From the IMG/VR virus record IMGVR_UViG_2778261458_000007: a DNA stretch of 39,379 bases. The stretch is one strand, 5' to 3'. Positions 1-32,235 of this stretch are shown in pieces. A program made the position numbers and the translations under genes. The notes beneath the pieces were generated by a model. It searched no databases, was not told the origin of the DNA, and worked only from the letters and a program-made list of their open reading frames with translations. The DNA comes from a virus. Lineage: Duplodnaviria; Heunggongvirae; Uroviricota; Caudoviricetes. Each line of letters opens with the position of its first letter. Position 1 is the stretch's first letter.

Positions 1-1251
1 GTGCTTACCGATACAAAATTAAAAAACCTCAAGCCGCAGGACAAACTGTACAAGGTCTCCGATCGTGACGGGCTGTATGTAGCTGTGCTTACGTCAGGCA
101 CGGTCTCGTTTCGCTATGACTACCGTATCAACGGTCGCCGCGAAACACTGGTAATCGGGCAGTATGGGCGTGACGGTATCAGCCTGGCAGAAGCGCGAGA
201 AGAACTGATTGCTGCAAAGAAGCTGCTTAAAGCAGGCCAGTCACCGGCTGCGGCTAAACGTGACGGTATCAAAAAGATTCGTGGTGCCGAGACGTTTGCT
301 GTACATACCGACAGTTATATGAAACACGTCATCCTGGCTGACAGTACCCGCGCAATGAAACAGGCGGTGATCGACCGTGACATACTTCCGGTTCTTGGCA
401 ATAAAATGATGGCTGAAATTACCACATCGATGGTTCGTGATTTGTGTGACCGGATTGTCGAACGCGGTGGCCGGGCAACAGCAGTGCAGGCCAGGGAGAT
501 CATCAGTAGCGTATACCGTCACGCCAATGACCGTGGTCATGGTTTGTTTAATCCTGCGGCTGACATTAAACCTTCGTCTATCGCCATATTTAAACCAAGA
601 GAGCGAACACTGACACCAGAAGAAATTGGCCTGTTCTTCCGCACGCTGGATGCCATTGGTGCTATGGGCACTATGAAAATGGCTTTAAAGCTGGTGCTTA
701 TCACTATGGTTCGTAAAGGCGAATTCACCAACGCAACGTGGGATGAAATAGATTTTAAAAAATGGACATGGACCATTCCTTCAGACCGCATGAAGGGAAG
801 CCGGGCTCACGTTATTTACCTGCCTAAACAGGCTCAGGATATATTGGTCGGATTGCAGATGTGCGCTGGTGGAAGTGAATATCTGGTTCCTGGTCGTTAC
901 AATTTCCGGAAGCCATTATCTAATGCCGCGCTGAACTCTCTGATCGACAGAACGGTGAAAATAATAAATGAAGATGGTGAGCATATTCAGGGCTTCACCG
1001 TACACGATATGCGCCGTACAGCCAGTACATTGTTGCATGAGGCTAGTTATCCTTCAGACTGGATTGAAAAGGCTCTGGCACATGAGCAGAAAGGTGTGCG
1101 CGCCGTATATAACAAAGCGGAATACGCCAGACAGCGCGCCTACATGTTGCAGCAGTGGGCCGATATGATTGATTCCTGGATTGACGGGGAGCATACGGAT
1201 CTGATTCCGTTCTCCCCGTCGAAGTTTGAGAAGTGGATGGCGGGGGAATAA
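1..1251 (+). CDS. int: Tyrosine-type site-specific integrase (P4-like family)
   Basis: 416-aa ORF with GTG start at window edge; catalytic motifs HDMRRT (H-x-x-R) and VRAVYNKAEY (Tyr); N-terminal arm-binding-like region. Confidence 0.85.
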   Translation: MLTDTKLKNLKPQDKLYKVSDRDGLYVAVLTSGTVSFRYDYRINGRRETLVIGQYGRDGISLAEAREELIAAKKLLKAGQSPAAAKRDGIKKIRGAETFAVHTDSYMKHVILADSTRAMKQAVIDRDILPVLGNKMMAEITTSMVRDLCDRIVERGGRATAVQAREIISSVYRHANDRGHGLFNPAADIKPSSIAIFKPRERTLTPEEIGLFFRTLDAIGAMGTMKMALKLVLITMVRKGEFTNATWDEIDFKKWTWTIPSDRMKGSRAHVIYLPKQAQDILVGLQMCAGGSEYLVPGRYNFRKPLSNAALNSLIDRTVKIINEDGEHIQGFTVHDMRRTASTLLHEASYPSDWIEKALAHEQKGVRAVYNKAEYARQRAYMLQQWADMIDSWIDGEHTDLIPFSPSKFEKWMAGE

Positions 1252-1254
1252 CGT

Positions 1255-1449
1255 TTAATTATTCTGCTGATTTTCTTCCATCTCGGCTTCTGCTGCCAGT
1301 GATTCAATTTTATCTGTGAATATTGCTGACAGTGTTGCAAATTCAGCATCAGTGACAGCGGGAATTGGAACAAACCTGATCCCGCTGTGTGCAAGCATGT
1401 TTGCAGTTTCAAGGCATTTCCTTAAATCTGCTGGTGATGCCCTGTTCAT
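1255..1449 (-). CDS. Small hypothetical protein (64 aa)
   Basis: ATG at 1449-1447 overlaps the TGA stop of the upstream methylase (ATGA coupling); last gene of leftward early operon; convergent with int, 3 bp apart. Confidence 0.4.
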   Translation of the reverse strand: MNRASPADLRKCLETANMLAHSGIRFVPIPAVTDAEFATLSAIFTDKIESLAAEAEMEENQQNN

Positions 1450-2096
1450 GCTGCACGCTCCCGCCCCTGGTTGTCTGTTGGTGACAGCGGAGCATTGCTG
1501 AATGCATTTGTTAATCCGGCAATATACAACGCGTATCCAGGGTGTAGTTGCACTGCTGGGTCTTCGCACTGATTACCCCAAACATCGAAGCCATGAGCCG
1601 TTTGGCGGGCGAACAGTTCAATGCGAGAAACATCGCCTAACAATTGCACAAGTTTTTCACGAACGACATCTGGTTTTCTTGAATGCTCAAGCCGCGGTGC
1701 GGTAAATGACTGAACGATCCCTGCATTAATGCGCGGAGGTAGTTTTCCCTTAACTGCAAACAGGCAATCTTCACTATTGGCGCGAGTCATGTGTCCCATA
1801 CCCATAACCAGTTTATCTGGTTGTCGACTACCACATTTTATCCACGTGAAGCCCTTCATGGTCATCAGACGGAACCCCCAGGCTTCAACAACTTTTAGTG
1901 CTTCGAGTGGTTGTGTTGGCACCCACCACATGGCCAACAGACAGTTTTCATCGGCCAAATCCCACACAGGAAGGCGGCAGATATCCATCACACTCATAAC
2001 CGGATATTTAAAACCGGCACCGCGATTACCATCTGCGGCTTTGTCCCGGTATACCCAGGGTGGATCTGCATAGATTAGTGTGTATTTCTTAGTCAT
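1446..2096 (-). CDS. MT-A70 family DNA N6-adenine methyltransferase
   Basis: 216-aa ORF with DPPW catalytic motif (YADPPWVY) near N-terminus, typical of MT-A70/phage adenine methylases. Confidence 0.75.
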   Translation of the reverse strand: MTKKYTLIYADPPWVYRDKAADGNRGAGFKYPVMSVMDICRLPVWDLADENCLLAMWWVPTQPLEALKVVEAWGFRLMTMKGFTWIKCGSRQPDKLVMGMGHMTRANSEDCLFAVKGKLPPRINAGIVQSFTAPRLEHSRKPDVVREKLVQLLGDVSRIELFARQTAHGFDVWGNQCEDPAVQLHPGYALYIAGLTNAFSNAPLSPTDNQGRERAA

Positions 2097-2388
2097 AAAC
2101 CACCCCGCAACATCCTATACCGCTATAGTCTCCACGGCGAAGGCCGTTACCTTTTGTGATACATTGGTACCTGCGAACCGCGATCCTTGCACGCTCAACA
2201 TCACCAGAAGCAACATCCATACACTGAAGCCAAAGGTGAGCGGCAATGCGGAACTGCCCTTTTTTCTCTCTTTCAATCGCGCGTTTTTCGATCTCTATCG
2301 CCGCAGGAGTAACGGCGACAATCTTTGACGGACTGCGCATTGAAACCTTGTTCATGTGATATTTTTCAAGTCGGCTTAACTTTTTCAC
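2089..2388 (-). CDS. Hypothetical protein (99 aa)
   Basis: ORF with GTG start preceded by GAGGG; stop 2 bp before methylase start; no recognisable motif. Confidence 0.45.
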   Translation of the reverse strand: MKKLSRLEKYHMNKVSMRSPSKIVAVTPAAIEIEKRAIEREKKGQFRIAAHLWLQCMDVASGDVERARIAVRRYQCITKGNGLRRGDYSGIGCCGVVYD

Positions 2389-2497
2389 TTAATCCAACCC
2401 TCTCTGAAAATTAATGCCAGCAGATAAAGCCATGCTGAAACAGAGGCCAGGAATAAGTACCATCCTGACCATTTGCTCCAGTGCCTTAGCAGCACAC

Positions 2498-2746
2498 TCA
2501 TGCAGCGTTGCTCACAGGACGATATACACGTTGCTGAACAGGAGGCTTTTTACCCTGGAACTCTGCCGGGCTTGCTGCCTGACGTTCATCAAGCCAACGC
2601 TCAACTTCATCACGGTTCCATGCGCAGCGTTTGTCAGTGATATACCAGCGTTTAGGAAATTCCCCTGCGCGCTCCATGCGGTCGATAGTGCTCCATGACA
2701 GTGGCACCACCGCCAGGAGTTCCTTCTTACCTAATGCACCTTTCAT
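2498..2746 (-). CDS. AlpA-family helix-turn-helix regulator / excisionase-like protein
   Basis: 82-aa ORF; segment LAVVPLSWSTIDRMERAGEFPKR resembles AlpA/Xis-type HTH; RBS GAGAGGT upstream. Confidence 0.6.
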   Translation of the reverse strand: MKGALGKKELLAVVPLSWSTIDRMERAGEFPKRWYITDKRCAWNRDEVERWLDERQAASPAEFQGKKPPVQQRVYRPVSNAA

Positions 2747-2795
2747 AAATACCTCTCTTGGTTGCAGTGCGGCGCGCGTGGCGCCGCGGTGGTGG

Positions 2796-3737
2796 TTACA
2801 TAGATGTTTCGTTTAATTCTTCCCGACGAACGCTGTAAACGTCGGTGGCTTTTGCCAGCAGTTCGTCATCATCTGAAAGTTTTTGTGCAATGTATTTGTA
2901 AGCCTTATCCAGTTCGGAGACAGTGCTGTAATTCATCGCTGCGCTGGTAAAGGCCATCAGCATTTCTTCTGGATCACGGCTATCCGATTTACGCGTTTGC
3001 TCATCAGGCTTTTTCGCTGGTTTAGCGTTGATCAGACTGTTCATTCCCGCAGCAGTGGTCGTTTGCGGAGTAATGTCTCGCTCAACGCGCGGTGCCGTTT
3101 CCTGTAATTCGTCTGGGGTGTAGACGCCCATGATTACGTCAGGACAGTGCAGGCGAGACCAGCGTTTTGTCGCAAGGTATGCGAGTTGTTGTTTCGGATC
3201 ACTGGCCCAAAGTGTGGAGTTTCTTACCTGTGCTTGAGACAGCATTAACTCAAGCACTCGAGGTTGATCCTCGCCCTTCATGGTTGCCCATACGCGAACA
3301 CCGCAGCCTTCTTCGTCTTTTAGAGTCCAGCCTGGTGCGATATATGGATTGCCGTTTTTGGATGTTTTCTCAACAAACTTACCGATCACGCGTTCCCACG
3401 GCCCGAACCACTCGTAGTTGATGCGATCTTTTGTTGGCGACATCGTTGAGATAACTGCGTTTACTAATTGGGCTTCATAACCTAGCGTGCCGTTCACAAC
3501 ATGGGTTTTCTGAGCCACGGCAAACGGGTTCATTCCCCACTGCGCAGCCTGCATTGCCACGGCCATGCAATCAGCTGGTTTCCCGGCGAGGTGCGCCGGT
3601 ACCGTTACGCGGCTTTGCGCCATTACCTCGGCGAATTTCATCAGTTGGTTCAAGCCGTCTGGGCTGAAAATAGTTGCAGCAGTTCCAGCGATTGCTGTGT
3701 CTACTGGTGCGTTGATGTTTGCGATGTCGTTGCTCAT
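2796..3737 (-). CDS. recT: RecT-family single-strand annealing protein
   Basis: Sequence resembles RecT family; ATG at 3737 overlaps stop of upstream exonuclease gene (ATGA); the longer ORF start at 3764 is less likely. Confidence 0.8.
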   Translation of the reverse strand: MSNDIANINAPVDTAIAGTAATIFSPDGLNQLMKFAEVMAQSRVTVPAHLAGKPADCMAVAMQAAQWGMNPFAVAQKTHVVNGTLGYEAQLVNAVISTMSPTKDRINYEWFGPWERVIGKFVEKTSKNGNPYIAPGWTLKDEEGCGVRVWATMKGEDQPRVLELMLSQAQVRNSTLWASDPKQQLAYLATKRWSRLHCPDVIMGVYTPDELQETAPRVERDITPQTTTAAGMNSLINAKPAKKPDEQTRKSDSRDPEEMLMAFTSAAMNYSTVSELDKAYKYIAQKLSDDDELLAKATDVYSVRREELNETSM

Positions 3738-4555
3738 ATGTACATATCCTGTTTGCGTGCCCACTCAGGGCGTTTAATGATTTCCACACCGCCCCATTCA
3801 TCATTGATGCGGCATTCGTGATAGGTATTCAGATCCCGGCGGAACAGAGCGTGCCCGGCATCGACATCCTGCGCATCCAGCTCGAACACGCGTACCGGAT
3901 ACCGACCACAATCAATGCTTTCGCTCACGGCAAGAAAGAAAAAACCATGCGGCTGACCAGTAACCCTCATTGCGCCTTCGCGGTACATTGCGTCCTGCAC
4001 GTGGTAGCGGAATTCCTCGATGTGGCGTGCAAAACGGTCCATATCTGCAACCTTTTTCACGTCGACGATCACGTTGTGCTCGTTCAGCCATTTGTCTGGA
4101 CGAATTCGGCACAACTCACCCGTCTCTTCATCGTTCCAGTACATTGATGCTTCGCAGTAACCAGGTGCTTCCAACATCCAGCGTGCCGCCGGGTGAGCCA
4201 TTGCGCTATCACGCATCAGCTCCAGTTTCCGCCACTGCTCGGCATCAAGTACCGTAATCCCCATATCCGCCACATCACGAAGAAATGCCTCTTCGTCAGC
4301 TTTACCTTGTTTTGTCCGACGATCGAATTTCGGTGAAACGATGAAGCGTTTGTCAAACTCTCCAGGTTCCAGAAGCAGACAGTGCAGAGCAGTACCCATG
4401 TCCAGTGCAGACTTCTTCTCTTCGTCTTCCGGAGCAGCCTTCACCCATTTCAGAAGGGCAGGGTTCTTAGCCACCATATCTAGCTGCGACTTACTCACGC
4501 CGTCACCGGCGTGGTAGTCCTCGTTGCTGATATCGAAATAAACTCCCGGATTCAT
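3734..4555 (-). CDS. RecE-like PD-(D/E)XK exonuclease
   Basis: 273-aa ORF immediately upstream of and coupled to recT; acidic/Lys pattern (DVKKV, E..D) consistent with PD-(D/E)XK nuclease partner of RecT. Confidence 0.65.
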   Translation of the reverse strand: MNPGVYFDISNEDYHAGDGVSKSQLDMVAKNPALLKWVKAAPEDEEKKSALDMGTALHCLLLEPGEFDKRFIVSPKFDRRTKQGKADEEAFLRDVADMGITVLDAEQWRKLELMRDSAMAHPAARWMLEAPGYCEASMYWNDEETGELCRIRPDKWLNEHNVIVDVKKVADMDRFARHIEEFRYHVQDAMYREGAMRVTGQPHGFFFLAVSESIDCGRYPVRVFELDAQDVDAGHALFRRDLNTYHECRINDEWGGVEIIKRPEWARKQDMYI

Positions 4556-4851
4556 GCCGCGTCCCTCTGCCCATCAAGCTGATCAGCCAGATCCCAGCGG
4601 GCGATAATTGCCATTGCCTCGCGCCGGTAGGCATCCATTAGTTCTTCGAACTCAGGGCTGTCTTTAGCGGCCTCCAGTACTTCCTGGCGAACGCCTTTAA
4701 CTGTTACAACGTCGAAAGTTGATGCCAGTTGATGAAGCCGGATACTCTCAATCAGTTCAACTTGTCGGTCATATAGCTGTTCTGACAGACGGTAGTCCTT
4801 GTCGAATGCCAGCATGATTTTTTGAAGATTTTTCTGCTGATTAACGTTCAT
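4552..4851 (-). CDS. Hypothetical early protein (100 aa)
   Basis: ORF starting at ATG 4851 (MNVNQQ), 2 bp after stop of preceding small gene; overlaps exonuclease start. Confidence 0.45.
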   Translation of the reverse strand: MNVNQQKNLQKIMLAFDKDYRLSEQLYDRQVELIESIRLHQLASTFDVVTVKGVRQEVLEAAKDSPEFEELMDAYRREAMAIIARWDLADQLDGQRDAA

Positions 4852-4853
4852 TA

Positions 4854-5006
4854 TCAGCCCTCCCATATCTCGTTATCGTTGGCCACATCGCGAGCTTCTT
4901 TGCTGACGAAAGCCCACTTAATGCCTTCCTGTAAGGTGCGGAACTTCCAGCTCATGAATCCGCATGCAGTAACGCAGTACCAACCGTTGATGATTTTCCA
5001 CTGCAT
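4854..5006 (-). CDS. Small hypothetical protein (50 aa), first gene of leftward early operon
   Basis: Not in ORF track (below 60 aa); ATG at 5006 with GAGGT 9 nt upstream; translation MQWKIINGWYCVTACGF...; directly downstream of leftward promoter. Confidence 0.35.
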   Translation of the reverse strand: MQWKIINGWYCVTACGFMSWKFRTLQEGIKWAFVSKEARDVANDNEIWEG

Positions 5007-5024
5007 AACTTGTTACCTCGGTCT

Positions 5025-5041
5025 GTTACCGTTGAGGTAAT
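5025..5041. promoter_or_regulatory. Operator site 1 (OL-proximal): GTTACCGTTGAGGTAAT
   Basis: 17-bp palindrome NTTACC-N5-GGTAAN overlapping -10 and +1 of leftward early promoter. Confidence 0.6.
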
Positions 5042-5068
5042 AATTATGCGTATATGGTTTGATGTCAA
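5040..5068 (-). promoter_or_regulatory. Leftward early promoter (PL-like)
   Basis: On minus strand -35 TTGACA (5068-5063), 17-bp spacer, -10 AATTAT (5045-5040); flanked by operator sites 1 and 2. Confidence 0.5.
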
Positions 5069-5086
5069 TAGATATGAGTTAAAAAA

Positions 5087-5103
5087 ATTACCCGTTAGGT
5101 AAT
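5087..5103. promoter_or_regulatory. Operator site 2 (OL-distal): ATTACCCGTTAGGTAAT
   Basis: Perfect half-sites ATTACC/GGTAAT, between repressor terminator and leftward promoter -35. Confidence 0.6.
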
Positions 5104-5114
5104 CGAATAGGCAA

Positions 5115-5137
5115 TAAAAAAGCCGCCATAAGGCGGC
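5115..5137 (-). terminator. Intrinsic terminator after repressor gene
   Basis: Hairpin GCCGCC-ATAA-GGCGGC followed on minus strand by a T-run (plus-strand A-run 5115-5121). Confidence 0.6.
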
Positions 5138-5159
5138 TTACTTACTGAAAAATATGGTT

Positions 5160-5744
5160 TTATTGTTTGTTTTTTTCGTTCTGGTTGATGACAAATTCAA
5201 TGTAACTTTCGATCTTTGCTTTCTCGGTTTCGGGTAACAATGCGTAGCGCGAGCGATCATAGTTGATGGTCGCAGGGTCGTGCGGGTGAATCAGTAATTC
5301 ATAGCCGTGACGCCCGAATGCGGATGCAACATTCTCCAGGGTGGAAATGGAAACGCTGACCTCATTGTTTAACAGGCGGCTGATTGTCACCTGGGCTACG
5401 CCGGATGCGCGGTGAAGTTTTCCCTGTGTTGAAAGGTCGCGGCTTTCGCTCATCCAGCGTTCCAGGTTGTGAGCCGCCAGCTGGCCAATGTCGCTTGGGC
5501 CGACAGGCTGAAAACCTTCCTGAGAAAGCGAGCGATCGATATCAAGCCAGTTACGGGGTTTATTGGCGGCAGCTTCAATTTTTCGTGCAACCTGGTCGCC
5601 GATAACCTTCTTGCCAAGAGCCCAGCGGTTTACCAGATTTGCCTGAGTTCCAAGTTTTTCAGCCATCCGCGTCTGAACACCATTGAATTCACGGTCGATC
5701 AAGTCGTTGAGATTTTGCCTGCGGACGTCCTGGATACTTTTCAT
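5160..5744 (-). CDS. CI-like prophage repressor (tandem HTH, no recognisable S24 peptidase domain)
   Basis: 194-aa ORF divergent from cro-like gene across an operator cluster; two HTH-like segments (QTRMAEKLGTQANLVNRW and GVAQVTISRLLNNE); no Ala-Gly/Ser-Lys cleavage motifs seen. Confidence 0.7.
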   Translation of the reverse strand: MKSIQDVRRQNLNDLIDREFNGVQTRMAEKLGTQANLVNRWALGKKVIGDQVARKIEAAANKPRNWLDIDRSLSQEGFQPVGPSDIGQLAAHNLERWMSESRDLSTQGKLHRASGVAQVTISRLLNNEVSVSISTLENVASAFGRHGYELLIHPHDPATINYDRSRYALLPETEKAKIESYIEFVINQNEKNKQ

Positions 5745-5798
5745 TTTCTGGAAAATCGCCTCATATCTGAATCAGAAGATGATTCAATTTAAAGCAAT

Positions 5799-5815
5799 AT
5801 TACCCAACAGGTAAA
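5799..5815. promoter_or_regulatory. Operator site 3 (OR cluster): ATTACCCAACAGGTAAA
   Basis: In divergent repressor/cro intergenic region. Confidence 0.6.
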
Positions 5816-5832
5816 TGCACCTCATGGGTAAC
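5816..5832. promoter_or_regulatory. Operator site 4 (OR cluster, degenerate): TGCACCTCATGGGTAAC
   Basis: Abuts site 3; right half conserved, left half degenerate; spacer TCATG identical to site 8. Confidence 0.4.
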
Positions 5833-5844
5833 TATCCTTGATTT

Positions 5845-5873
5845 TTGTTACCTTATAGGTGAATATTTATTAT
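5845..5873 (+). promoter_or_regulatory. Rightward early promoter (PR-like)
   Basis: -35 TTGTTA (5845-5850), 17-bp spacer containing operator site 5, -10 TATTAT (5868-5873); cro-like ATG at 5899. Confidence 0.5.
5847..5863. promoter_or_regulatory. Operator site 5 (OR cluster): GTTACCTTATAGGTGAA
   Basis: Lies in the spacer between -35 TTGTTA and -10 TATTAT of the rightward cro promoter. Confidence 0.55.
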
Positions 5874-5898
5874 CTGAAATAAATATCAGGCAATAGCT

Positions 5899-6129
5899 AT
5901 GAGCGATAACGGACATTTCGATTTCAAAAAGCACTGGCTTGCACTTACTCCGGATGAGCGTGAAGCCTTCGCACAGGAAGCCGGAACGACGAGTCACTAT
6001 ATCCAGACTCACTTAACAGGTAAGCGCAAAATGCCAGGTAAGGTATTGATGGATGGGCTTTTTAAAGCCTGTAAATCAAGACAATGGCTGCGCTCAAAAG
6101 CAGAACTGGCATACTTCTTCTACTCATGA
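5899..6129 (+). CDS. Cro-like DNA-binding protein
   Basis: 76-aa ORF divergent from repressor; first gene of rightward early operon; followed by intrinsic terminator. Confidence 0.55.
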   Translation: MSDNGHFDFKKHWLALTPDEREAFAQEAGTTSHYIQTHLTGKRKMPGKVLMDGLFKACKSRQWLRSKAELAYFFYS

Positions 6130-6151
6130 TATCCAGCCACAACCCTCTGTA

Positions 6152-6173
6152 GACCGCCATCCGGCGGTCTTTT
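6152..6173 (+). terminator. Intrinsic terminator after cro-like gene
   Basis: Hairpin GACCGCC-ATCC-GGCGGTC followed by TTTT. Confidence 0.65.
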
Positions 6174-6183
6174 CATATCTATT

Positions 6184-6200
6184 CGTACCTCAAAGGTAAT
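6184..6200. promoter_or_regulatory. Operator site 6: CGTACCTCAAAGGTAAT
   Basis: Immediately after cro terminator, upstream of gene at 6280. Confidence 0.5.
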
Positions 6201-6279
6201 AAAAAACCAAATATGGTTGATCTTTTTTTTGTGTCAGCACAAAATAACCGTAATCCCAATACTAATAACAGGGCTTACC

Positions 6280-6480
6280 ATGGAAATCATTACACGTATT
6301 GATGCCGCAAAGCGCGGACTTAAACGCTACTACACCGGAAAACCATGTAAGCACGGACATGACAGTGAACGCTGGGTTTACAACGGACACTGTGTTGAGT
6401 GCACCATGGAGTCAAACCGTCGCATCAGGGCAGAGATTAAGCAGATCATGATTAATTCCTCCCCACAACACTCAAGCTGA
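6280..6480 (+). CDS. Small Cys/His-rich protein (cII-equivalent position)
   Basis: Start at ATG 6280 (MEIITRIDAAKRG); C-x-H-G-H ... C-V-E-C pattern suggests zinc binding; the ORF-track start at 6217 is a TTG. Confidence 0.45.
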   Translation: MEIITRIDAAKRGLKRYYTGKPCKHGHDSERWVYNGHCVECTMESNRRIRAEIKQIMINSSPQHSS

Positions 6481-6495
6481 TAGCGGAGATTAATC

Positions 6496-7311
6496 ATGAG
6501 CAGACATGCAACAGATTGGGCCTGGGAGACAGATCCAGGTAGCTCATCATTAAAGCTCATACTGCTCTCGATGGCTGACAGAGCCGATGAATATAACCTC
6601 TGCTACCCAAGCATAGAACGCCTCGTTAAAGACACTTGCCTGAATAAAAAAACCGTGCAGGCCGGGCTTATATCGCTCATGAAAATGGGGCTTATTTCAG
6701 ATACCGGAGAGAGAAAGGGAGCGACGAAAAGAGTGCGGGTTTTCTCTCTTAATATAACAAAAAACGGGAACATTAAAGGTAACCGGGAAGGGTGTAATGA
6801 ACCCGAAAACGGTAATGTTACCGAAAACGGGAATATACCCAAAAACGGGATGTTGAATGATCCCAAAAACGGGATGTTGAATGATCCCAAAAACGGGATC
6901 CAGAACCAGTCATATAACCAGTCATTTAACCAAGAGAGGGAGAGCAGGACAAAAAACGGGGATTCTGTGCATCATGACCCCGGCGCAAACAACGCCGTGA
7001 TGAATAACTTTGTTCCTCCTGGTGGGCCAGGGCAATTAGGAAAATTTGTCATGCATGAACAATGGCAGCCATCAGATGACTTTCTTCGGAAAAGCTCATT
7101 GCAGGGGATCTACCTGGACAGTCTGCCAACGGCACAGGAACTTGCAGAGTTCAGAATTTACTGGATGGCTGAGGGTAAGGCATACCATCAGGCACAGTGG
7201 GAGCAGAAGCTGGCAAGGCGGCTGCAGATTAGCAGACAGAAGCAATCAACATTACCTGATAACAACGTTCCGCACTGGAACAGCCCTGAAGCATGGGAGG
7301 ATTTCTTGTGA
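6496..7311 (+). CDS. Replication initiation protein (lambda O-like, iterons embedded)
   Basis: 271-aa ORF with RBS GGAG; N-terminal HTH-like domain; internal AAAACGGGA iteron array coding KNG repeats; followed by coupled P-like gene. Confidence 0.7.
   Translation: MSRHATDWAWETDPGSSSLKLILLSMADRADEYNLCYPSIERLVKDTCLNKKTVQAGLISLMKMGLISDTGERKGATKRVRVFSLNITKNGNIKGNREGCNEPENGNVTENGNIPKNGMLNDPKNGMLNDPKNGIQNQSYNQSFNQERESRTKNGDSVHHDPGANNAVMNNFVPPGGPGQLGKFVMHEQWQPSDDFLRKSSLQGIYLDSLPTAQELAEFRIYWMAEGKAYHQAQWEQKLARRLQISRQKQSTLPDNNVPHWNSPEAWEDFL
6759..6961. repeat. Iteron array (AAAACGG[G/T]A, about 7 copies) within O-like gene, putative replication origin
   Basis: Cores at 6761, 6806, 6824, 6842, 6866, 6890, 6953; three copies are exact 24-bp tandem units CCCAAAAACGGGATGTTGAATGAT (6838-6861, 6862-6885, partial 6886-6903). 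Confidence 0.6.
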
Positions 7312-8129: not shown

Positions 8130-8146
8130 GTTACCTGTTAGGTAAT
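8130..8146. promoter_or_regulatory. Operator site 7: GTTACCTGTTAGGTAAT
   Basis: After P-gene terminator, upstream of -35 TTGATT. Confidence 0.55.
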
Positions 8147-8191
8147 AAAATATTCTAAAATCTATTGATTTCGTGTCTTATGTGGTTTTTA

Positions 8192-8208
8192 ATTACCTCA
8201 TGGGTAAA
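8192..8208. promoter_or_regulatory. Operator site 8: ATTACCTCATGGGTAAA
   Basis: Overlaps -10 TTTAAT and ends 2 bp before start codon at 8211. Confidence 0.55.
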
Positions 8209-10809: not shown

Positions 10810-10826
10810 ATTACCACAACGGTAAC
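10810..10826. promoter_or_regulatory. Operator site 9 (terminase promoter): ATTACCACAACGGTAAC
   Basis: Between strong terminator and terS start; left half overlaps extended -10 TGGTACTAT. Confidence 0.55.
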
Positions 10827-10845
10827 TATTACCACGGTGGTTATG

Positions 10846-13577: not shown

Positions 13578-13654
13578 TGGCGTGGCATGCAGGATTCGAA
13601 CCTGCGACCAACCGCTTAGAAGGCGGTTGCTCTGTCCAACTGAGCTAATGCCAC
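13578..13654 (-). tRNA. tRNA-Arg (anticodon UCU)
   Basis: 77-nt cloverleaf on minus strand: acceptor GTGGCAT/ATGCCAC, D-arm GCTC...GAGC, anticodon stem ACCGC/GCGGT with loop CTTCTAA, T-arm GCAGG-TTCGAAT-CCTGC, encoded CCA; own terminator downstream. Confidence 0.85.
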
Positions 13655-13976: not shown

Positions 13977-13993
13977 CTTACCTGAAAGGTAAT
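13977..13993. promoter_or_regulatory. Operator site 10 (head operon / tRNA divergent region): CTTACCTGAAAGGTAAT
   Basis: In noncoding region upstream of head genes and of minus-strand tRNA. Confidence 0.55.
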
Positions 13994-27593: not shown

Positions 27594-30068
27594 ATGAGAC
27601 AGGAATGTATACAAGCGGTTCAGCAGGCGGCGCAGCGCATGTTAACGGCGCGAGAAATACAGAACATTGAAGACCGCATTTATCGAAATATGCGCTCCAT
27701 TGCTCGTGATGACCCGATGTCGTGGCGACAACTTTCCGAATCAGAGCGGCTATATCGAGCAGCACAATTGGCATCTGAAGAATTACAGCGAGAAGCGGCA
27801 TTAAAGAAACGTCGTGTGGCTCTCACTATAGCCGCGCGTCAGAGATTGGATAAATTTATCAATAGCTATCAAGGGGCTGATGGGAAACTTGGCGCTCTTA
27901 ACCGTACTATAGCTTTTAATGCAGACGGTAAATCTAATTTCCTCTCTGTTGAATCCAGAACAAAAGCCACTCGTGATTATGCATTGAGTCAATTGCAGGA
28001 GGCATTCGAAGCAGTTGATCCTCGCTTTTTTGGCCTGTTTGAAGATGAAGCGGGCGTGCGTGACCTGGTATATGAAATGCGAGGGCAAAATACTGGCAAT
28101 GCTAAAGCAAGAAAAGGTGCTAAGGCGTGGAGAGAAGTGACAGAGCTACTGCGCCGCCGGTTTAATGATGCTGGTGGGGACATTGGCTATCTCGAAAACT
28201 GGGGGATCCCTCAACATCATTCTATGGAAAAGGTTGGGGCGGTATCAAAAGATAAATGGGTTAGCGATGTTATAGGTAAGCTGGATCGCAAATATTATAC
28301 CCGAGCCGATGGACAACTGATGAACGATGTCGAGTTGTCTGCATTTCTTGGAGAGGCTTATAACACGATCGCTACTGGTGGGCTGAATAAGCTTACTGAT
28401 ACCGGAATGCGAATTTCCGGCGCACGTGCTAACCGTGGTAATGCATCACGACAGATACATTTCAAAGATGCAGATTCCTATCTGCAATATCAGCAACTTT
28501 ATGGCGATCGCTCTCTATGGGAAATCATGGTCGGTCACCTGGAAGGGATCAGTAAAGATATTGCTTTGGTGGAAACATATGGTCCAAACCCCGATCATGT
28601 TTTCCGTTCCCTTCTTGATCAGGTGAAGGCAGAAACGGCAACAGCTAACCCGAGTAAAACCGGTAGCGTCGAGCGGCTGGCGAACAAAACAGAGAACCTG
28701 TACAACTTTATTTCCGGAAAGACACAGCCTGTTGCGAATCCTCACATCGCGCGCTGGTCTGACAATATCAGAAACTGGCTGGTTGCCAGCAGGCTCGGAT
28801 CCGCGTTGCTGTCATCGTTCTCTGATCTTGGAACCATGTATCTGTCTGCGAAGGTTACCAACCTTCCAATGAACCAGTTATTCCGCAACCAGCTTGAAGC
28901 TATGGACCCAACGAACCGTACTGAGCTTGCGCGGGCGCGCCGCGCTGGTCTGGCGATGGAATCTCTACTTGGCAGCGTTAACCGCTGGGCGATGGATAAT
29001 ATGGGGCCGTCTGTGTCTCGTTGGGCTGCAACGGCGGTAATGCGTGCCAGTGGGCTTACAGCATGGTCAGATGCGCACAAGCGCGCTTATGGCGTAACCA
29101 TGATGGGAAGCCTGGGTGAAGTAGTGTCACGGACACCAGACCTTCGTAGCCTCGATGACTCTGATTTTCGTATCCTGAAAAGCAAAGGGATTACTGACAC
29201 AGACTGGAGCGTATGGAAGCTGGCGCAACAGGAGGACTGGGGGAACGGTAATAATACGATGCTGACACCGGAAAGCATTATGCGTATCCCTGATTCAGCA
29301 GTTAAACATCTTGGTGAGCCTGAACGTGTGAAATTTGAGGCAATGCGTAAACTGCTCGGTGCCGTAACTGAAGAAGTTGATATGGCTGTTATTACACCGG
29401 GCGCACGTGAACAGATGTTCGTAGGGTCTGGTCTTCAGCGTGGAACATGGAAAGGTGAATTAACGAGAAGTGTTTTCCTGTTTAAATCGTTCCCTATCTC
29501 GGTAGTTATGCGTCACTGGCATAGAGCTATGGGGATGCCGTCTGCTGGTGGGCGTGCGGCATATATAGCAACGTTTTTAGCAAGCACAACCATGCTTGGT
29601 GCTCTTTCCATGCAGATTACTGATCTTATTAATGGGAGAAATCCAAAAGAAATGACCGGTGACAACATGGTTAAATTCTGGATAAATGCATTTTTAAAAG
29701 GTGGTGGGGCAGGGTTGTATGGTGATTTTCTTTTCTCTGACCACACCAGGTACGGGAGCGGCGCACTAGCGTCGATGCTTGGCCCGGTAGCTGGTCTGGT
29801 TGATGACGTAGTGAAGATTGCTCAGGGCATACCATTAAATGCTGTGGAAGGGAAGAATGAGCAGACTGGTGGTGATCTGGTTAAGCTTGGGAAAGGTTTG
29901 ATGCCTGGTGCGAATCTCTGGTACTTGAAGGCGGCTCTCGATCACATGATCTTTAACCAGATGCAGGAGTATTTTTCACCAGGTTATTTGCGTAAAATGG
30001 AGCAACGTTCGAAGAAAGAGTTTAACCAGACATACTGGTGGCGACCTCAGGATGTCACTCCGCAATAA
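27594..30068 (+). CDS. Internal virion / DNA-ejection protein (824 aa)
   Basis: Large ORF with hydrophobic segments near C-terminus; T7 gp16-equivalent position. Confidence 0.45.
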   Translation: MRQECIQAVQQAAQRMLTAREIQNIEDRIYRNMRSIARDDPMSWRQLSESERLYRAAQLASEELQREAALKKRRVALTIAARQRLDKFINSYQGADGKLGALNRTIAFNADGKSNFLSVESRTKATRDYALSQLQEAFEAVDPRFFGLFEDEAGVRDLVYEMRGQNTGNAKARKGAKAWREVTELLRRRFNDAGGDIGYLENWGIPQHHSMEKVGAVSKDKWVSDVIGKLDRKYYTRADGQLMNDVELSAFLGEAYNTIATGGLNKLTDTGMRISGARANRGNASRQIHFKDADSYLQYQQLYGDRSLWEIMVGHLEGISKDIALVETYGPNPDHVFRSLLDQVKAETATANPSKTGSVERLANKTENLYNFISGKTQPVANPHIARWSDNIRNWLVASRLGSALLSSFSDLGTMYLSAKVTNLPMNQLFRNQLEAMDPTNRTELARARRAGLAMESLLGSVNRWAMDNMGPSVSRWAATAVMRASGLTAWSDAHKRAYGVTMMGSLGEVVSRTPDLRSLDDSDFRILKSKGITDTDWSVWKLAQQEDWGNGNNTMLTPESIMRIPDSAVKHLGEPERVKFEAMRKLLGAVTEEVDMAVITPGAREQMFVGSGLQRGTWKGELTRSVFLFKSFPISVVMRHWHRAMGMPSAGGRAAYIATFLASTTMLGALSMQITDLINGRNPKEMTGDNMVKFWINAFLKGGGAGLYGDFLFSDHTRYGSGALASMLGPVAGLVDDVVKIAQGIPLNAVEGKNEQTGGDLVKLGKGLMPGANLWYLKAALDHMIFNQMQEYFSPGYLRKMEQRSKKEFNQTYWWRPQDVTPQ

Positions 30069-30077
30069 GGAACAACA

Positions 30078-30491
30078 ATGAAGGAATTATTGCTGTTATC
30101 GGTATTTTTGATATCCGCTTGCTCGACATCCTATGATGTTTATGACGGTGTTGATAAGGCATATTGCGACAAAGTTAAAATGGATTTTTCTCTTGCCAAG
30201 ACGGCGAAGGATAGTTGTATTGATCACTACGTCAAGACTTATACCAAGCCAGCCTCATCGGCATCTGATATTGCTGAAGGTGCTGTGTTTGAGTGTAACA
30301 AGGTGATATCCATCGCAGCGAGTTCTTCATACGATGCTGCTGTATGTGCAATGGCTGAAAGAAACGGCATGTCAGTGCAAAAAATTAATAGCATGATAAG
30401 CAGTAATGACGAAGCCAAAATAAGAACTGATATCAGCTCGGTGAAAAAAGATGCCATGAACAGAGTTGTAAAATATCAGTCATCTTTATAA
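30078..30491 (+). CDS. Lipoprotein (137 aa), last gene of late operon
   Basis: Signal peptide with lipobox LISAC; RBS AAGGAA; GC visibly lower than structural genes; followed by palindrome and terminator. Confidence 0.55.
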   Translation: MKELLLLSVFLISACSTSYDVYDGVDKAYCDKVKMDFSLAKTAKDSCIDHYVKTYTKPASSASDIAEGAVFECNKVISIAASSSYDAAVCAMAERNGMSVQKINSMISSNDEAKIRTDISSVKKDAMNRVVKYQSSL

Positions 30492-30494
30492 GTC

Positions 30495-30506
30495 GTGACA
30501 TGTCAC
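30495..30506. repeat. Palindrome GTGACATGTCAC (copy 3)
   Basis: Perfect 12-bp palindrome between lipoprotein stop and late-operon terminator. Confidence 0.6.
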
Positions 30507-30507
30507 A

Positions 30508-30531
30508 GGCCGCTTTCGCGGCCTTGTTTTT
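30508..30531 (+). terminator. Intrinsic terminator ending the late structural operon
   Basis: Hairpin GGCCGC-TTTC-GCGGCC followed by TTGTTTTT. Confidence 0.65.
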
Positions 30532-30608
30532 AACGAATGCCACCGCCACCCGGGCGGGAATCCGCAGAACGCCCACCGCTGCGGGAGCCGTCAGCAGCAG
30601 TATCGCTG

Positions 30609-31112
30609 TTATACTATTGAGTTTAATGATATCTTGTCCTTAATATCATTAAGTTTGCCATATATCTTTTTTGCATAAAAATCAGCATCCTCAATAAACC
30701 TCGACTTCTCATTATCAGGCATATTTTTGAAGGTATGTGCACATGTATATTGAGAGTAGTATTTGTGAAATTCTTGATACGCATTATTGAGTTCTTGTAA
30801 GTCTTTTTTATACTCAGGAAGGTATATGTTTATTAGCATTTCCATCGTTTGCAACGGATTCGCTCTTGATACGTCAAATTTACTATCAGAGTGGTATCTG
30901 GCATTTTTTACGAAATTGAGAATGGTAATTGTGCTTGAATCTATGACTTTTTTAGTAAGTATACAATTTATAAATAATTGCTCGCATTTATCCCTTAATA
31001 TTTTTTGTCGCTCTAATCTTATGCTGTTTTTGTATCCTTGTCTTGCATTTATATAAGTGGAAACTATAGCAATAACTGCACCTATCAATGCGCCTAAGAT
31101 AGTATTATCCAT
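30609..31112 (-). CDS. Membrane-anchored protein of unknown function
   Basis: Start ATG 31112 with AGGTGG upstream; one N-terminal TM segment (ILGALIGAVIAIVSTYI); AT-rich coding sequence. Confidence 0.5.
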   Translation of the reverse strand: MDNTILGALIGAVIAIVSTYINARQGYKNSIRLERQKILRDKCEQLFINCILTKKVIDSSTITILNFVKNARYHSDSKFDVSRANPLQTMEMLINIYLPEYKKDLQELNNAYQEFHKYYSQYTCAHTFKNMPDNEKSRFIEDADFYAKKIYGKLNDIKDKISLNSIV

Positions 31113-31137
31113 ATAAGCCACCTAAACTGCGTAAAAT

Positions 31138-32001: not shown

Positions 32002-32210
32002 TATTTCCTTACAGTGGCAAGATCCTGTTTAACGATTGCAGCAGCGAGACGACGCATCTCCTTAACCTCAGGAAGCTCAGAAATTTGCTGTGATGAGATA
32101 TACACTCCACCACGCTTGTTAACCTGCGCTGACGCCGGAACTTCTGCATTTTTTGCCTGAGGGCTGGGTGCATTATCCCTCGTTTTTGTACGAGCGAACC
32201 AAAATCCCAT
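32001..32210 (-). CDS. Small basic protein (69 aa), first gene of accessory operon
   Basis: Strong RBS AGGAGGAGAT; directly downstream of operator-overlapped promoter. Confidence 0.45.
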   Translation of the reverse strand: MGFWFARTKTRDNAPSPQAKNAEVPASAQVNKRGGVYISSQQISELPEVKEMRRLAAAIVKQDLATVRK

Positions 32211-32235
32211 ATCTCCTCCTCATGTAAACACATGG

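What the first reader, a model, noticed from the sequence alone, without database searches (positions are those of the whole stretch)
1255..5006. Leftward early operon couples recombination (RecE-like/RecT) with an MT-A70 adenine methylase and several tiny unknown genes
Eight minus-strand genes run from the PL-like promoter to the integrase, with overlapping stop/start codons (ATGA at 3737 and 1449; a TAG/GTG overlap at 2091-2096 looks like coupling too). Besides RecE-like and RecT, the operon has a DPPW-motif methyltransferase, which could protect phage DNA from restriction or mark it epigenetically. It also has a 50-aa and a 100-aa gene in the promoter-proximal position that in lambda holds host-takeover and anti-nuclease functions. 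These small genes are candidates for anti-defence or host-shutoff proteins. The integrase is convergent, 3 bp from the operon end with no terminator between.
Basis: partly seen in the sequence, partly recalled or inferred. Interest (0 to 1): 0.5.

Follow-up and report, generated by a model that had tools for sequence, protein, structure and literature searches.

The report
Early-left operon of a phiV10-like prophage
This is the ordinary, already-annotated repressor-controlled early operon of a common E. coli phiV10/epsilon15-type prophage: recombination genes, an excisionase, a methylase and small conserved genes, two of them still of unknown function.

Summary
A tightly packed minus-strand gene string runs from a repressor-controlled promoter (5068-5040) to 3 bp short of a convergent integrase. 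It has nine ORFs, not eight: a 38-aa membrane ORF was missed. The 2089-2096 junction is ATGACTAA, not TAG/GTG.

The window is about 98% identical to Escherichia phages YDC107_2, EC.W1-9 and phiV10 (Uetakevirus), where these genes are already annotated. The operon matches 568 of 5426 complete E. coli genomes.

Gene content, promoter-proximal first:
- orf50
- orf99
- short RecE-type nuclease
- RecT
- AlpA-type excisionase
- orf38
- PerC-family protein
- MT-A70 methylase
- lambda Orf63 homolog (DUF1382)

The methylase is 80% identical over residues 1-192 to the Stx-phage enzyme M.EcoPA8orf6770P. That enzyme's substrate is disputed: GATC DNA when overproduced, or 16S rRNA together with a partner, PNB-2. 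The window has no PNB-2 homolog.

orf50 and orf99 are real genes under purifying selection. They are conserved core genes in 82 of 83 relatives and persist when the recombination module is swapped, so they are not variable accessory cargo. I found no homology or fold evidence for their function.

Verdict: already known and of low interest. The open points are the methylase substrate and the function of orf50 and orf99.

The parts
5120..5139 (-). Intrinsic terminator that ends the repressor (5160-5744) transcript and insulates it from the left operon
   Evidence: 8-bp stem with 6 G-C pairs followed by a T-run. Annotated as a terminator at the equivalent place in phiV10.
5088..5102 (.). Distal operator-like palindrome TTACCCGTTAGGTAA, upstream of the -35 hexamer
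   Evidence: Exact TTACC-N5-GGTAA match. There are 10 exact copies in the window (36 within 2 mismatches against 11.25 in shuffles). It is conserved in register in Tyrion, L170 and L172.
5040..5068 (-). PL-like sigma-70 promoter, TTGACA-17 nt-AATTAT
   Evidence: 10 of 12 consensus matches. The ATCTATTGAC -35 block is invariant in four diverged relatives and recurs in a second copy of the module at 8131-8207.
5026..5040 (.). Proximal operator-like palindrome TTACCGTTGAGGTAA, abutting the -10 hexamer (sharing base 5040) and covering the likely transcription start
   Evidence: The same motif occurs three times (5800, 5817, 5848) between the repressor and cro-like genes.
4854..5006 (-). orf50: 50-aa protein of unknown function (phrog_898; PhiV10p39), the first gene of the operon
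   Evidence: phrog_898 E 1.9e-38. GAGG Shine-Dalgarno sequence; intact in 76 of 76 relatives. The N-terminal ~25 aa are almost invariant (17 invariant columns in residues 1-25), while the matching codons, including third positions, vary between relatives. AF2 pLDDT 54, so no usable fold.
4552..4851 (-). orf99: 99-aa helical protein of unknown function (phrog_856; PhiV10p38), ATGA-coupled to the nuclease gene
   Evidence: phrog_856 E 6e-55. Only 31 clusters found among 1.84 billion representatives. pN/pS 0.21. AF2 gives a two-helix hairpin at pLDDT 67. No fold or profile match.
3734..4555 (-). Short RecE-type 5'-3' exonuclease (PD-(D/E)XK fold, DUF3799), 273 aa
   Evidence: PF12684 E 6.7e-23. 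phrog_412 'exonuclease VIII' E 3e-126. NCBIfam PRK09709 positions 606-873 of 877, 314 bits.
2796..3737 (-). RecT single-strand annealing protein, 313 aa, starting at ATG 3737
   Evidence: PF03837 E 2.2e-44. ATGA overlap with the RecE stop codon. Same gene call in EC.W1-9 and Tyrion.
2498..2746 (-). AlpA-family helix-turn-helix protein, 82 aa; probable excisionase / recombination directionality factor
   Evidence: PF05930 24.2 bits (cutoff 21). phrog_66 'excisionase and transcriptional regulator' E 2e-16. pN/pS 0.06.
   Evidence: phrog_17484 E 4.7e-27. Annotated as PhiV10p35. Intact in 79 of 82 relatives, pN/pS 0.19 against Tyrion.
2089..2388 (-). PerC-family small protein, 99 aa from GTG 2388 (alternative starts at ATG 2355 and ATG 2340)
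   Evidence: PF06069 29.8 bits (cutoff 22.6). phrog_868 aligned 1-99 of 99, E 1e-60. Weak hit to the ANR family.
1446..2096 (-). MT-A70 (class beta) N6-adenine methyltransferase, 216 aa, DPPW at residues 11-14
   Evidence: PF05063 79.6 bits. 80% identical over residues 1-192 to phage PA8 gp5, M.EcoPA8orf6770P. Nearest solved structures are ciliate MTA1 and METTL3.
1255..1449 (-). DUF1382 protein, 64 aa; homolog of lambda Orf63 (exo-xis region, 'pro-lytic')
   Evidence: PF07131 105.7 bits. 50% identity to lambda orf63. PDB 8dsb E 5.8e-13.
1..1251 (+). Convergent P4-type tyrosine integrase; its stop codon lies 3 bp from the operon's last stop codon
   Evidence: phiV10 annotation: cd00801 INT_P4.
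1183..1220 (-). Two-tier G+C-rich hairpin inside the last 70 nt of int, 35 nt beyond the operon's last stop codon. Possible 3'-end or processing structure of the left transcript (inferred only).
   Evidence: dG about -24 kcal/mol; z-score -4.6 for the 181-nt context. Retained in Tyrion, SPN1S and Klebsiella phage phi13.3 with a re-formed inner stem, and more stable on the minus strand there. No U-tract follows it.

Best explanation
The region is the repressor-controlled early-left ('PL-type') operon of a temperate phiV10/epsilon15-like podophage (Uetakevirus) that lies downstream of guaA in at least one E. coli genome.

In the lysogen, the 194-aa double-HTH repressor (5160-5744) presumably binds two TTACC-N5-GGTAA operators that bracket the promoter at 5068-5040, keeping the operon silent. 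After derepression, one leftward transcript would express nine translationally coupled genes:
- orf50 and orf99: conserved core proteins of unknown role.
- A short RecE-type exonuclease plus RecT: Rac-type recombination.
- An AlpA-family excisionase. This makes excision by the convergently transcribed P4-type integrase conditional on induction.
- A 38-aa membrane peptide.
- A distant PerC-family protein.
- An MT-A70 m6A methyltransferase.
- A lambda Orf63 homolog.

The transcript has no intrinsic terminator and runs antisense into int.

For the methylase, I commit to a post-induction nucleic-acid N6-adenine methyltransferase acting as a homodimer. Replicating phage DNA (Dam-like GATC or relaxed specificity) is the more likely substrate here, at about 0.5. 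rRNA is less likely, at about 0.3, because the PNB-2 specificity subunit of its Stx-phage ortholog is absent.

Shown: the gene content, couplings, promoter and operator sequences and their conservation. Inferred: repressor binding, single-transcript status, the Xis role, the methylase substrate and the antisense effect on int.
For: Identity of the element:
- 97.7-98.5% nucleotide identity over 6 kb to YDC107_2, EC.W1-9 and phiV10.
- The same genes are annotated in phiV10, EC.W1-9 and Tyrion.
- The operon is matched in 568 of 5426 complete E. coli genomes. In one RefSeq genome it sits downstream of guaA.

Family assignments.

Promoter and operators:
- Found.
- Conserved in four diverged relatives despite different spacer sequences.
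- The same promoter-operator design recurs at 8131-8207.

Single transcription unit: no promoter-like or terminator-like site on the minus strand between 5006 and 1255. Six of the eight gene junctions overlap (five by 4 nt, one by 8 nt).

Real genes: ORFs intact, pN/pS 0-0.22.

Methylase:
- 80% identity to M.EcoPA8orf6770P.
- No PNB-2, PNB-1 or Tyrion wHTH homolog anywhere in the window.
- Its upstream neighbour in other phages is heterogeneous and often a DNA-metabolism gene: NinB, YbcO, DndB, ParB-HTH, a DnaC-like protein, Orf60a. This is what a portable orphan DNA methylase would look like.
- Class beta methyltransferases act as dimers (PMC7544214).

Orf63 homology.
Against: - No transcript data were available, so the single-operon status, the promoter and the 3' end are all sequence-level inferences.
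- The 49-nt RecT/AlpA gap (2747-2795) could hide a weak promoter.
- The repressor-operator assignment rests on motif distribution only. The same palindrome also occurs at seven sites outside the immunity region, so another DNA-binding protein could be the ligand.
- For the methylase, purified M.EcoPA8orf6770P alone showed near-background activity on DNA (PMC10810198, section 18). This argues against a stand-alone DNA methylase.
- The GATC observed/expected ratio in the window is 0.78 and is uninformative.
- The AlpA-like protein could be a transcription activator rather than, or as well as, an excisionase.
Confidence: 0.8

Rival explanations
1. The MT-A70 enzyme is an RNA (16S rRNA) m6A methyltransferase that tunes translation and prophage induction, as reported for its Stx-phage ortholog. 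It would act alone or with a different small partner, for example the translationally coupled PerC-like protein.
For: - 80% identity to M.EcoPA8orf6770P over the catalytic core.
- That enzyme with PNB-2 prefers 16S rRNA and raises spontaneous induction (PMC10810198).
- The nearest solved relatives include METTL3.
- A small protein gene overlaps the methylase start by 8 nt.
- A PerC-like gene directly upstream of an MT-A70 gene recurs in diverged lineages: L111, L150 and 3 of 21 upstream neighbours. It also recurs in two E. coli plasmid records.
Against: - No PNB-2 homolog in the window or in any of the 80 genome loci surveyed.
- The PerC-like protein has no similarity to PNB-2.
- The C-terminal tail that the authors link to PNB-2 binding is different here.
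- Tyrion has the same tail, but DUF1317 and a wHTH gene lie between its PerC-like gene and its methylase. So tail and upstream gene do not co-vary.
- Overlapping starts are found with every kind of upstream gene.
- The rRNA claim itself rests on SAM-consumption assays, and the modified base has not been mapped (PMC10810198 discussion).
Confidence: 0.25
2. One reading: orf50 and orf99 (and possibly orf38) are anti-defence or host-takeover proteins. They would be functional analogues of lambda Gam, Kil or Ral, for example a RecBCD inhibitor serving the adjacent recombination module.
For: - They occupy the promoter-proximal position upstream of the exonuclease/annealase pair, as gam and kil do in lambda.
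- orf99 is ATGA-coupled to the nuclease gene, and stays so when the nuclease is a YqaJ type instead of a RecE type. This fits a role independent of the nuclease family.
- It is predicted to be helical.
- No other function is known.
Against: - No sequence, profile or fold link to Gam (hhalign probability 12.6%, and the aligned segment is not collinear) or to any named family.
- Both genes are near-universal in this phage group, present in 82 of 83 loci. They are not variable accessory cargo.
- In Tyrion and L172 another small gene separates orf99 from the nuclease.
- The structure models are of low confidence.
Confidence: 0.2
3. The string is not one operon. The int-proximal segment (AlpA-like gene to DUF1382) is a separately regulated module with its own promoter, possibly active in the lysogen. 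This would parallel the report that gp6-gp5 of phage PA8 are induced near stationary phase.
For: - The only sizeable intergenic gap (49 nt, 2747-2795) precedes the AlpA-like gene.
- In phage PA8 the methylase is reported to be transcribed in lysogens and to affect spontaneous induction (PMC10810198).
- The DUF1382 gene and the recombination module are exchanged independently among relatives.
Against: No sigma-70-like promoter or terminator is found on the minus strand inside 1255-5006. The gap holds a good Shine-Dalgarno sequence and little else. Gene order and tight packing are conserved across relatives.
Confidence: 0.15

Closest known systems
Escherichia phage phiV10 genes PhiV10p32-p39 (Uetakevirus; also epsilon15, SPN1S, Tyrion, EC.W1-9, YDC107_2)
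   Same: Same genes in the same order and orientation, 97.7-98.5% nucleotide identity. Same convergent integrase 3 bp away, and the same repressor and terminator.
   Different: The phiV10 record has one extra A (AAAA against AAA at window ~3751), which fuses RecE and RecT into one annotated ORF. The window and 25 other relatives have two genes with an ATGA overlap. Tyrion carries extra DUF1317 and wHTH genes before its methylase.
Lambda PL operon (N ... gam-bet-exo, exo-xis region, xis-int)
   Same: Leftward early operon from a repressor-controlled promoter. It has an exonuclease/annealase pair, an Orf63 homolog between the recombination genes and int, and an excisionase expressed only from the early promoter.
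   Different: - RecE/RecT-type rather than Exo/Bet-type recombination genes.
- No N, nut, Gam, Kil, cIII or Ral homologs were detected.
- int is convergent rather than co-transcribed, so lambda-style PL read-through into int and sib retroregulation cannot apply.
- The excisionase is AlpA-type and the integrase is P4-type.
M.EcoPA8orf6770P-PNB-2 of Stx phage PA8 (Gong, Chakraborty & Koudelka 2023, PMC10810198) and M.EcoGV
   Same: 80% identical catalytic core with DPPW. A DUF1382/Orf63-like gene lies immediately downstream (49% identical). The position is int-proximal on the early-left side.
   Different: There is no PNB-2 or PNB-1. The upstream gene is a PerC-family protein unrelated to PNB-2. 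The C-terminal ~25 residues are unrelated.
Rac prophage RecE/RecT
   Same: RecT family protein plus the RecE C-terminal nuclease domain (model positions 606-873), with adjacent, coupled genes.
   Different: The nuclease is only 273 aa and lacks the ~600-residue N-terminal part of Rac RecE. In about 16% of close relatives the pair is replaced by a YqaJ-type nuclease with a different RecT.
Lambda Orf63 (DUF1382; NMR structure, PMC10869804)
   Same: 50% identity over 62 residues, the same length, and the same position between the recombination genes and int.
   Different: It is directly coupled to a methylase gene here and in phage PA8, which is not the case in lambda. The biochemical function of the family is unknown.

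Membership tests
MT-A70 / class beta N6-adenine methyltransferases (PF05063) | Profile match above the curated cutoff across the whole domain | tested here: met
   79.6 bits against a cutoff of 23.9; residues 5-176 align to profile positions 1-172 of 172.
MT-A70 / class beta N6-adenine methyltransferases (PF05063) | Catalytic motif IV, DPPW, near the N-terminus (permuted motif order) | tested here: met
   YADPPWVY at residues 9-16. P12, P13 and W14 are invariant in 7 diverse homologs; D11 is E in one, BUCT709.
MT-A70 / class beta N6-adenine methyltransferases (PF05063) | SAM-dependent m6A formation on a nucleic acid | not testable with these tools
   Needs an enzymatic assay or methylome data.
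M.EcoPA8orf6770P-PNB-2 16S rRNA methyltransferase holoenzyme | Catalytic subunit orthologous to gp5 of phage PA8 | tested here: met
   80% identity over residues 1-192, E 7e-124.
M.EcoPA8orf6770P-PNB-2 16S rRNA methyltransferase holoenzyme | Adjacent PNB-2 specificity subunit | tested here: not met
   No tblastn hit better than E 5.7 anywhere in the window. The upstream protein is unrelated to PNB-2.
M.EcoPA8orf6770P-PNB-2 16S rRNA methyltransferase holoenzyme | The Stx-type C-terminal ~27 residues that the authors link to PNB-2 association | tested here: not met
   The alignment ends at residue 192; the tails are unrelated.
Rac-type RecE/RecT recombination module | RecT-family annealase | tested here: met
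   PF03837, 151.8 bits.
Rac-type RecE/RecT recombination module | RecE C-terminal PD-(D/E)XK exonuclease domain | tested here: met
   PRK09709 positions 606-873, 314 bits; PF12684; phrog_412.
Rac-type RecE/RecT recombination module | Full-length (~866 aa) RecE | tested here: not met
   The protein is 273 aa and scores below the equivalog cutoff of 1269 bits.
Lambda-type PL early operon | Promoter overlapped by operators shared with the PR/PRM region | tested here: met
   Sequence level only.
Lambda-type PL early operon | N/nut antitermination, and int co-transcribed with sib control | tested here: not met
   No N-like family hit for any ORF. int is on the opposite strand. nut-like RNA elements were not searched for specifically.
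AlpA/Xis recombination directionality factors (PF05930) | Profile match above the cutoff, with a P4-type integrase in the same element | tested here: met
   24.2 bits against a cutoff of 21; phrog_66 'excisionase'. The integrase is annotated INT_P4 in phiV10.
AlpA/Xis recombination directionality factors (PF05930) | Stimulates excision | not testable with these tools
   Needs an excision assay.
PerC family (PF06069) | Profile match above the cutoff | tested here: met
   29.8 bits against a cutoff of 22.6, but only residues 35-80 align.
PerC family (PF06069) | Close similarity to EPEC PerC or EHEC Pch, and activation of LEE1 | tested here: inconclusive
   tblastn against 72,556 plasmids found only phage-like PerC genes, none annotated as on an EAF-type plasmid. 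Activation of LEE1 is not testable here.
Lambda Orf63 / DUF1382 (PF07131) | Full-length profile match and pairwise homology to lambda Orf63 | tested here: met
   105.7 bits, 1-60 of 60. 50% identity, E 7e-21. PDB 8dsb E 5.8e-13.
Lambda Gam (RecBCD inhibitor), considered for orf99 | Detectable profile homology, collinear with Gam | tested here: not met
   hhalign probability 12.6%. 33 columns align the N-terminus of orf99 to the C-terminus of Gam.

The most novel reading that the evidence does not exclude
The MT-A70 enzyme of Uetakevirus-type prophages could be a host-RNA (rRNA) m6A methyltransferase that works without PNB-2, possibly using the coupled PerC-family protein as its targeting subunit. 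Such prophages were matched in roughly one in ten complete E. coli genomes. If true, phage-driven ribosome methylation at induction would reach well beyond Stx phages, and the mechanistically obscure PerC family would gain a biochemical role. A second, independent possibility is that the invariant promoter-proximal pair orf50/orf99 is a new early regulator or nuclease inhibitor of this phage group.
Probability: 0.12. Interest if true: 0.6.

Novelty: already known. Interest (0 to 1): 0.15.

Why it matters
As it stands, this is a textbook-style early operon of a well-sequenced phage group, so it matters mainly as a correct annotation.

Three points have some wider value:
1. The methylase is a close ortholog of an enzyme whose substrate is in dispute (GATC DNA or 16S rRNA). 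Here it occurs naturally without the proposed specificity subunit, so this phage is a clean system to settle what the catalytic subunit does alone.
2. orf50 and orf99 are strictly conserved first genes of the operon in a prophage family matched in about 10% of complete E. coli genomes, and nothing is known about them.
3. An induction-dependent Xis placed opposite a tightly convergent int is a simple, testable design for coupling excision to derepression.

Tried and rejected
1. **Methylase tail and upstream gene co-vary (PerC-like protein as the partner subunit).** Rejected as a general rule. Tyrion has the same tail but DUF1317 and wHTH genes in between. Short-tail forms follow DUF1317, a 331-aa protein or a 44-aa ORF. 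Across 100 loci the upstream neighbours include NinB, YbcO, DndB, ParB-HTH and a DnaC-like protein.

2. **orf99 as a Gam analogue.** hhalign probability was 12.6% and the aligned segment is not collinear. The PDB sequence search gave nothing. An exhaustive profile search found only 31 small clusters and no link to a named family. The AF2 model has pLDDT 67, and the BFVD fold search gave no hit with E below 3.

3. **orf50.** No PDB hit. AF2 pLDDT was 54, so I ran no fold search on it. I considered that the conserved 5' part might be an RNA element of the nut or put kind. I rejected this because the amino acids are invariant while the matching codons, including third positions, vary between relatives.

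4. **GATC counts as a clue to methylase specificity.** The observed/expected ratio is 0.78, similar to other 4-mer palindromes, so it is uninformative.

5. **The phiV10 'RecE-RecT fusion' as a real feature.** It comes from a single extra A found only in the phiV10 record (1 of 26 sequences).

6. **Rfam scan.** No RNA family hit inside 1-6600.

7. **Fang et al. 2012 (PMC3879109).** The paper is not held, so the M.EcoGV GATC claim is cited second-hand.

8. **Viral-contig scan with the methylase.** It returned only near-identical loci. These were useful for conservation statistics but not for diversity.

Full report
**What the window is.** Bases 1-6000 are 98.5% identical to Escherichia phage YDC107_2, 98.4% to EC.W1-9 and 97.7% to phiV10 (genus Uetakevirus, the epsilon15 group). 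They are about 80% identical to Enterobacter phage Tyrion. The finding's region plus the adjacent promoter (window 1255-5160) is matched in 568 of 5426 complete E. coli genomes, with at least 80% coverage in 455. In one RefSeq genome the prophage lies just downstream of guaA, with int co-directional with guaBA. The region is therefore the early-left arm of a common, already-sequenced temperate podophage. Its genes are annotated in phiV10 as PhiV10p32-p39.

**Checking the observation.** The ORF table and the sequence confirm a packed minus-strand string from 5006 to 1255. There are nine ORFs, not eight:

| ORF | Coordinates |
|---|---|
| orf50 | 4854-5006 |
| orf99 | 4552-4851 |
| RecE-like | 3734-4555 |
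| RecT | 2796-3737 |
| AlpA-like | 2498-2746 |
| orf38 | 2385-2501 |
| PerC-like | 2089-2388 |
| MT-A70 | 1446-2096 |
| DUF1382 | 1255-1449 |

PGAP also omits it, but it is annotated in phiV10 and has its own PHROG family.
- ATGA overlaps at 3734-3737 and 1446-1449 are confirmed.
- More overlaps exist at 4552-4555 and 2498-2501 (ATGA) and at 2385-2388 (GTGA).
- The junction at 2089-2096 is ATGACTAA, an 8-nt overlap of an ATG start and a TAA stop. It is not TAG/GTG.
- The integrase (1-1251, + strand) ends 3 bp from the DUF1382 stop codon.
- All nine ORFs are intact in 28-82 related loci. pN/pS is 0-0.22 in the most divergent comparison, and most starts are preceded by a recognisable Shine-Dalgarno sequence. 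These are real genes, not chance ORFs.

**Promoter and control.**
- A 10-of-12 sigma-70 match (TTGACA-17-AATTAT) lies at 5068-5040 on the minus strand.
- It sits downstream of a clean intrinsic terminator (5139-5120) that ends the repressor gene.
- Two exact 15-bp palindromes, TTACC-N5-GGTAA, bracket the promoter at 5026-5040 and 5088-5102.
- The same motif occurs three times between the repressor and the cro-like gene (5800, 5817, 5848).
- Promoter and operators are conserved in register in Tyrion and in two Klebsiella-type relatives, although the spacer sequences differ.
- A second copy of the whole design (T-run, operator, ATCTATTGA -35 block, operator 62 bp away) faces rightward at 8131-8207.
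- On this basis the 'PL-like promoter' is supported at the sequence level. Repressor binding itself is inferred.
- No promoter-like or terminator-like site was found on the minus strand inside the gene string. This fits a single transcript that runs antisense into int.

**Gene content.** Assignments come from Pfam, PHROGs and NCBIfam.
- **RecT:** PF03837.
- **Nuclease:** 273 aa, corresponding to the C-terminal domain of Rac RecE (model positions 606-873).
- **AlpA-family HTH protein:** filed by PHROGs under 'excisionase and transcriptional regulator'.
- **PerC-family protein:** a distant member. Only residues 35-80 match the profile. A tblastn search of 72,556 plasmids found only phage-type PerC genes.
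- **MT-A70 methyltransferase:** has the DPPW motif.
- **DUF1382 protein:** 50% identical to lambda Orf63 and matches PDB 8dsb. Orf63 is a dimeric 'pro-lytic' exo-xis protein whose mechanism is unknown (PMC10869804).

So four of the 'tiny unknown genes' belong to named families. The phiV10 annotation of a RecE-RecT fusion comes from one extra A that is unique to that record. The window shows the usual two-gene state.

**The methylase.**
- Its closest studied relative is gp5 of Stx phage PA8, M.EcoPA8orf6770P. The two are 80% identical over residues 1-192, and the tails are unrelated.
- Gong et al. (PMC10810198) report that the purified enzyme alone has near-background activity on DNA or RNA.
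- They also report that it forms a 1:1 complex with the upstream gene product PNB-2, that this holoenzyme prefers 16S rRNA, and that it raises spontaneous induction.
- The similar M.EcoGV is listed as a GATC methylase on the basis of plasmid over-expression (PMC10810198; PMC6602927).
- The window has no PNB-2, PNB-1 or Tyrion-type wHTH homolog. Its upstream gene is an unrelated PerC-family protein.
- I tested whether the variable C-terminal tail tracks the upstream gene. It does not: Tyrion has the same tail but a different upstream gene, and short-tail forms follow various genes.
- Across 80 species-level genome loci the upstream neighbour is heterogeneous: PerC, Orf60a/DUF1317, NinB, YbcO, DndB, ParB-HTH, a DnaC-like protein. 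That pattern is typical of a portable orphan methylase cassette.
- PerC directly upstream does recur in several diverged lineages, so a PerC-methylase partnership is not excluded. The data do not require it.
- My reading is a post-induction m6A methyltransferase acting as a dimer, since class beta enzymes are obligate dimers (PMC7544214). DNA is the more likely substrate here and rRNA is the live alternative.

**orf50 and orf99.**
- Both families are narrow and enterobacterial. orf99 has 53 clusters in the 5.8-billion-sequence set and 31 among 1.84 billion representatives. orf50 has 29 clusters.
- Neither has a Pfam, NCBIfam or PDB match.
- AF2 gave a low-confidence two-helix hairpin for orf99 (pLDDT 67) and nothing usable for orf50 (pLDDT 54).
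- A fold search of the orf99 model against viral structures found nothing, and a profile comparison with lambda Gam was negative.
- Conservation is more informative. Both genes are present in 82 of 83 related loci.
- In every relative examined, orf50 is the first gene after the promoter and orf99 follows it.
- They persist when the RecE/RecT pair is replaced by a YqaJ-type nuclease with another RecT, which happens in about 16% of loci.
- The first ~25 residues of orf50 are almost invariant, while the codons encoding them differ between relatives, including at third positions. The constraint is therefore on the protein.
- This is the signature of conserved core early genes, not of the variable accessory loci where anti-defence genes usually sit. 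An anti-nuclease or host-takeover role remains possible but has no positive evidence.

**How it most likely works.**
- The repressor holds PL off in the lysogen.
- On derepression the leftward transcript supplies recombination functions and the AlpA-type directionality factor. Excision by the separately transcribed, convergent P4-type integrase therefore becomes conditional on induction.
- The transcript also delivers the PerC-like protein, the methylase and the Orf63 homolog late in the same message.
- With only 3 bp and no terminator between the convergent genes, the left transcript must enter int in antisense.
- A conserved two-tier G+C-rich hairpin lies 35 nt beyond the last stop codon (1183-1220, about -24 kcal/mol). 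In relatives it is more stable on the minus-strand RNA. It is a candidate 3'-end or processing structure.
- That hairpin reading is weak. No U-tract follows, and third-position conservation (10 of 13) is only modestly above the gene-wide 58%.

**Verdict.** It is the known early-left operon of a known phage group: already known, low interest. The residual interest lies in the contested substrate of the methylase in a natural PNB-2-free context, and in the two strictly conserved unknown first genes.

Noticed in passing
window 8131-8207 (+); also 10811-10843, 13978-13992, 32237-32251, 33304-33318, 33685-33699, 6185-6199: The exact operator palindrome TTACC-N5-GGTAA occurs 10 times in the window, mostly in intergenic regions far from the immunity region. 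At 8131-8207 the whole PL design recurs facing rightward, upstream of the ORF at 8211: T-run, operator, ATCTATTGA -35 block, second operator 62 bp away. This suggests several repressor-controlled promoters.
   Followed up: partly
window ~3751; L001 (phiV10 NC_007804.2) locus ~5252: The 'RecE-RecT fusion protein' annotated in phiV10 (PhiV10p37) comes from one extra A (AAAA against AAA) 15 nt before the RecE stop codon. The window and 25 other relatives have two genes with an ATGA overlap, so this is a probable sequencing error or private mutation. It also appears to have inflated the phrog_561 profile to 633 positions.
   Followed up: yes
window 1183-1220 (inside the int 3' end): A strong two-tier hairpin (about -24 kcal/mol) is conserved in Tyrion, SPN1S and Klebsiella phage phi13.3, with a re-formed inner stem. 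The common G-to-A variant keeps a G.U pair only on the minus-strand RNA. It may mark the 3' end or a processing site of the left-operon transcript.
   Followed up: partly
window 33083-33166 (-), 33191-33267 (-), 32324-33049 (-): Rfam finds a C4 antisense RNA (66 bits) and an isrK RNA (67.7 bits) directly upstream of a 241-aa minus-strand ORF, with an operator palindrome at 33304. This looks like a P1 immI-type antisense-RNA/antirepressor module. It would fit a repressor that lacks a self-cleavage domain.
   Followed up: no
window 13578-13654 (-): A tRNA-Arg (anticodon TCT) gene lies on the minus strand among plus-strand genes.
   Followed up: no
L088 (Tyrion NC_031077.1) locus ~5600-5850: Tyrion does encode an orf50 homolog on the operon strand. 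Its record instead annotates an opposite-strand ORF (gp39) there, which is a probable mis-call.
   Followed up: partly
L010, L029, L170 and about 14 other related loci, at the position of window 2796-4555: In about 16% of close relatives the DUF3799-RecE/RecT pair is replaced by a YqaJ-type nuclease plus a different RecT, while the flanking genes stay. The DUF1382 gene is likewise replaced in 32 of 83 loci, and the middle of RecT (3200-3500) is a separate variable segment. This is classic module mosaicism.
   Followed up: partly
window 30001-32000: A sharp drop in G+C (0.34-0.39 against about 0.50) covers minus-strand ORFs at 30609-32233. It is probably a horizontally acquired moron, for example O-antigen modification as in phiV10.
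   Followed up: no
L173 (NZ_CP148445.1) 1-3500: In a lysogen the prophage int gene lies 192 nt downstream of host guaA on the same strand. Read-through from guaBA could therefore contribute to int expression.
   Followed up: no
L170 and L172, between the promoter-proximal operator and orf50: Klebsiella-type relatives carry a ~60-70 nt insert in the PL leader. It holds a CCACCAC..GTGG hairpin and a third operator-like palindrome, both absent from the window.
   Followed up: no
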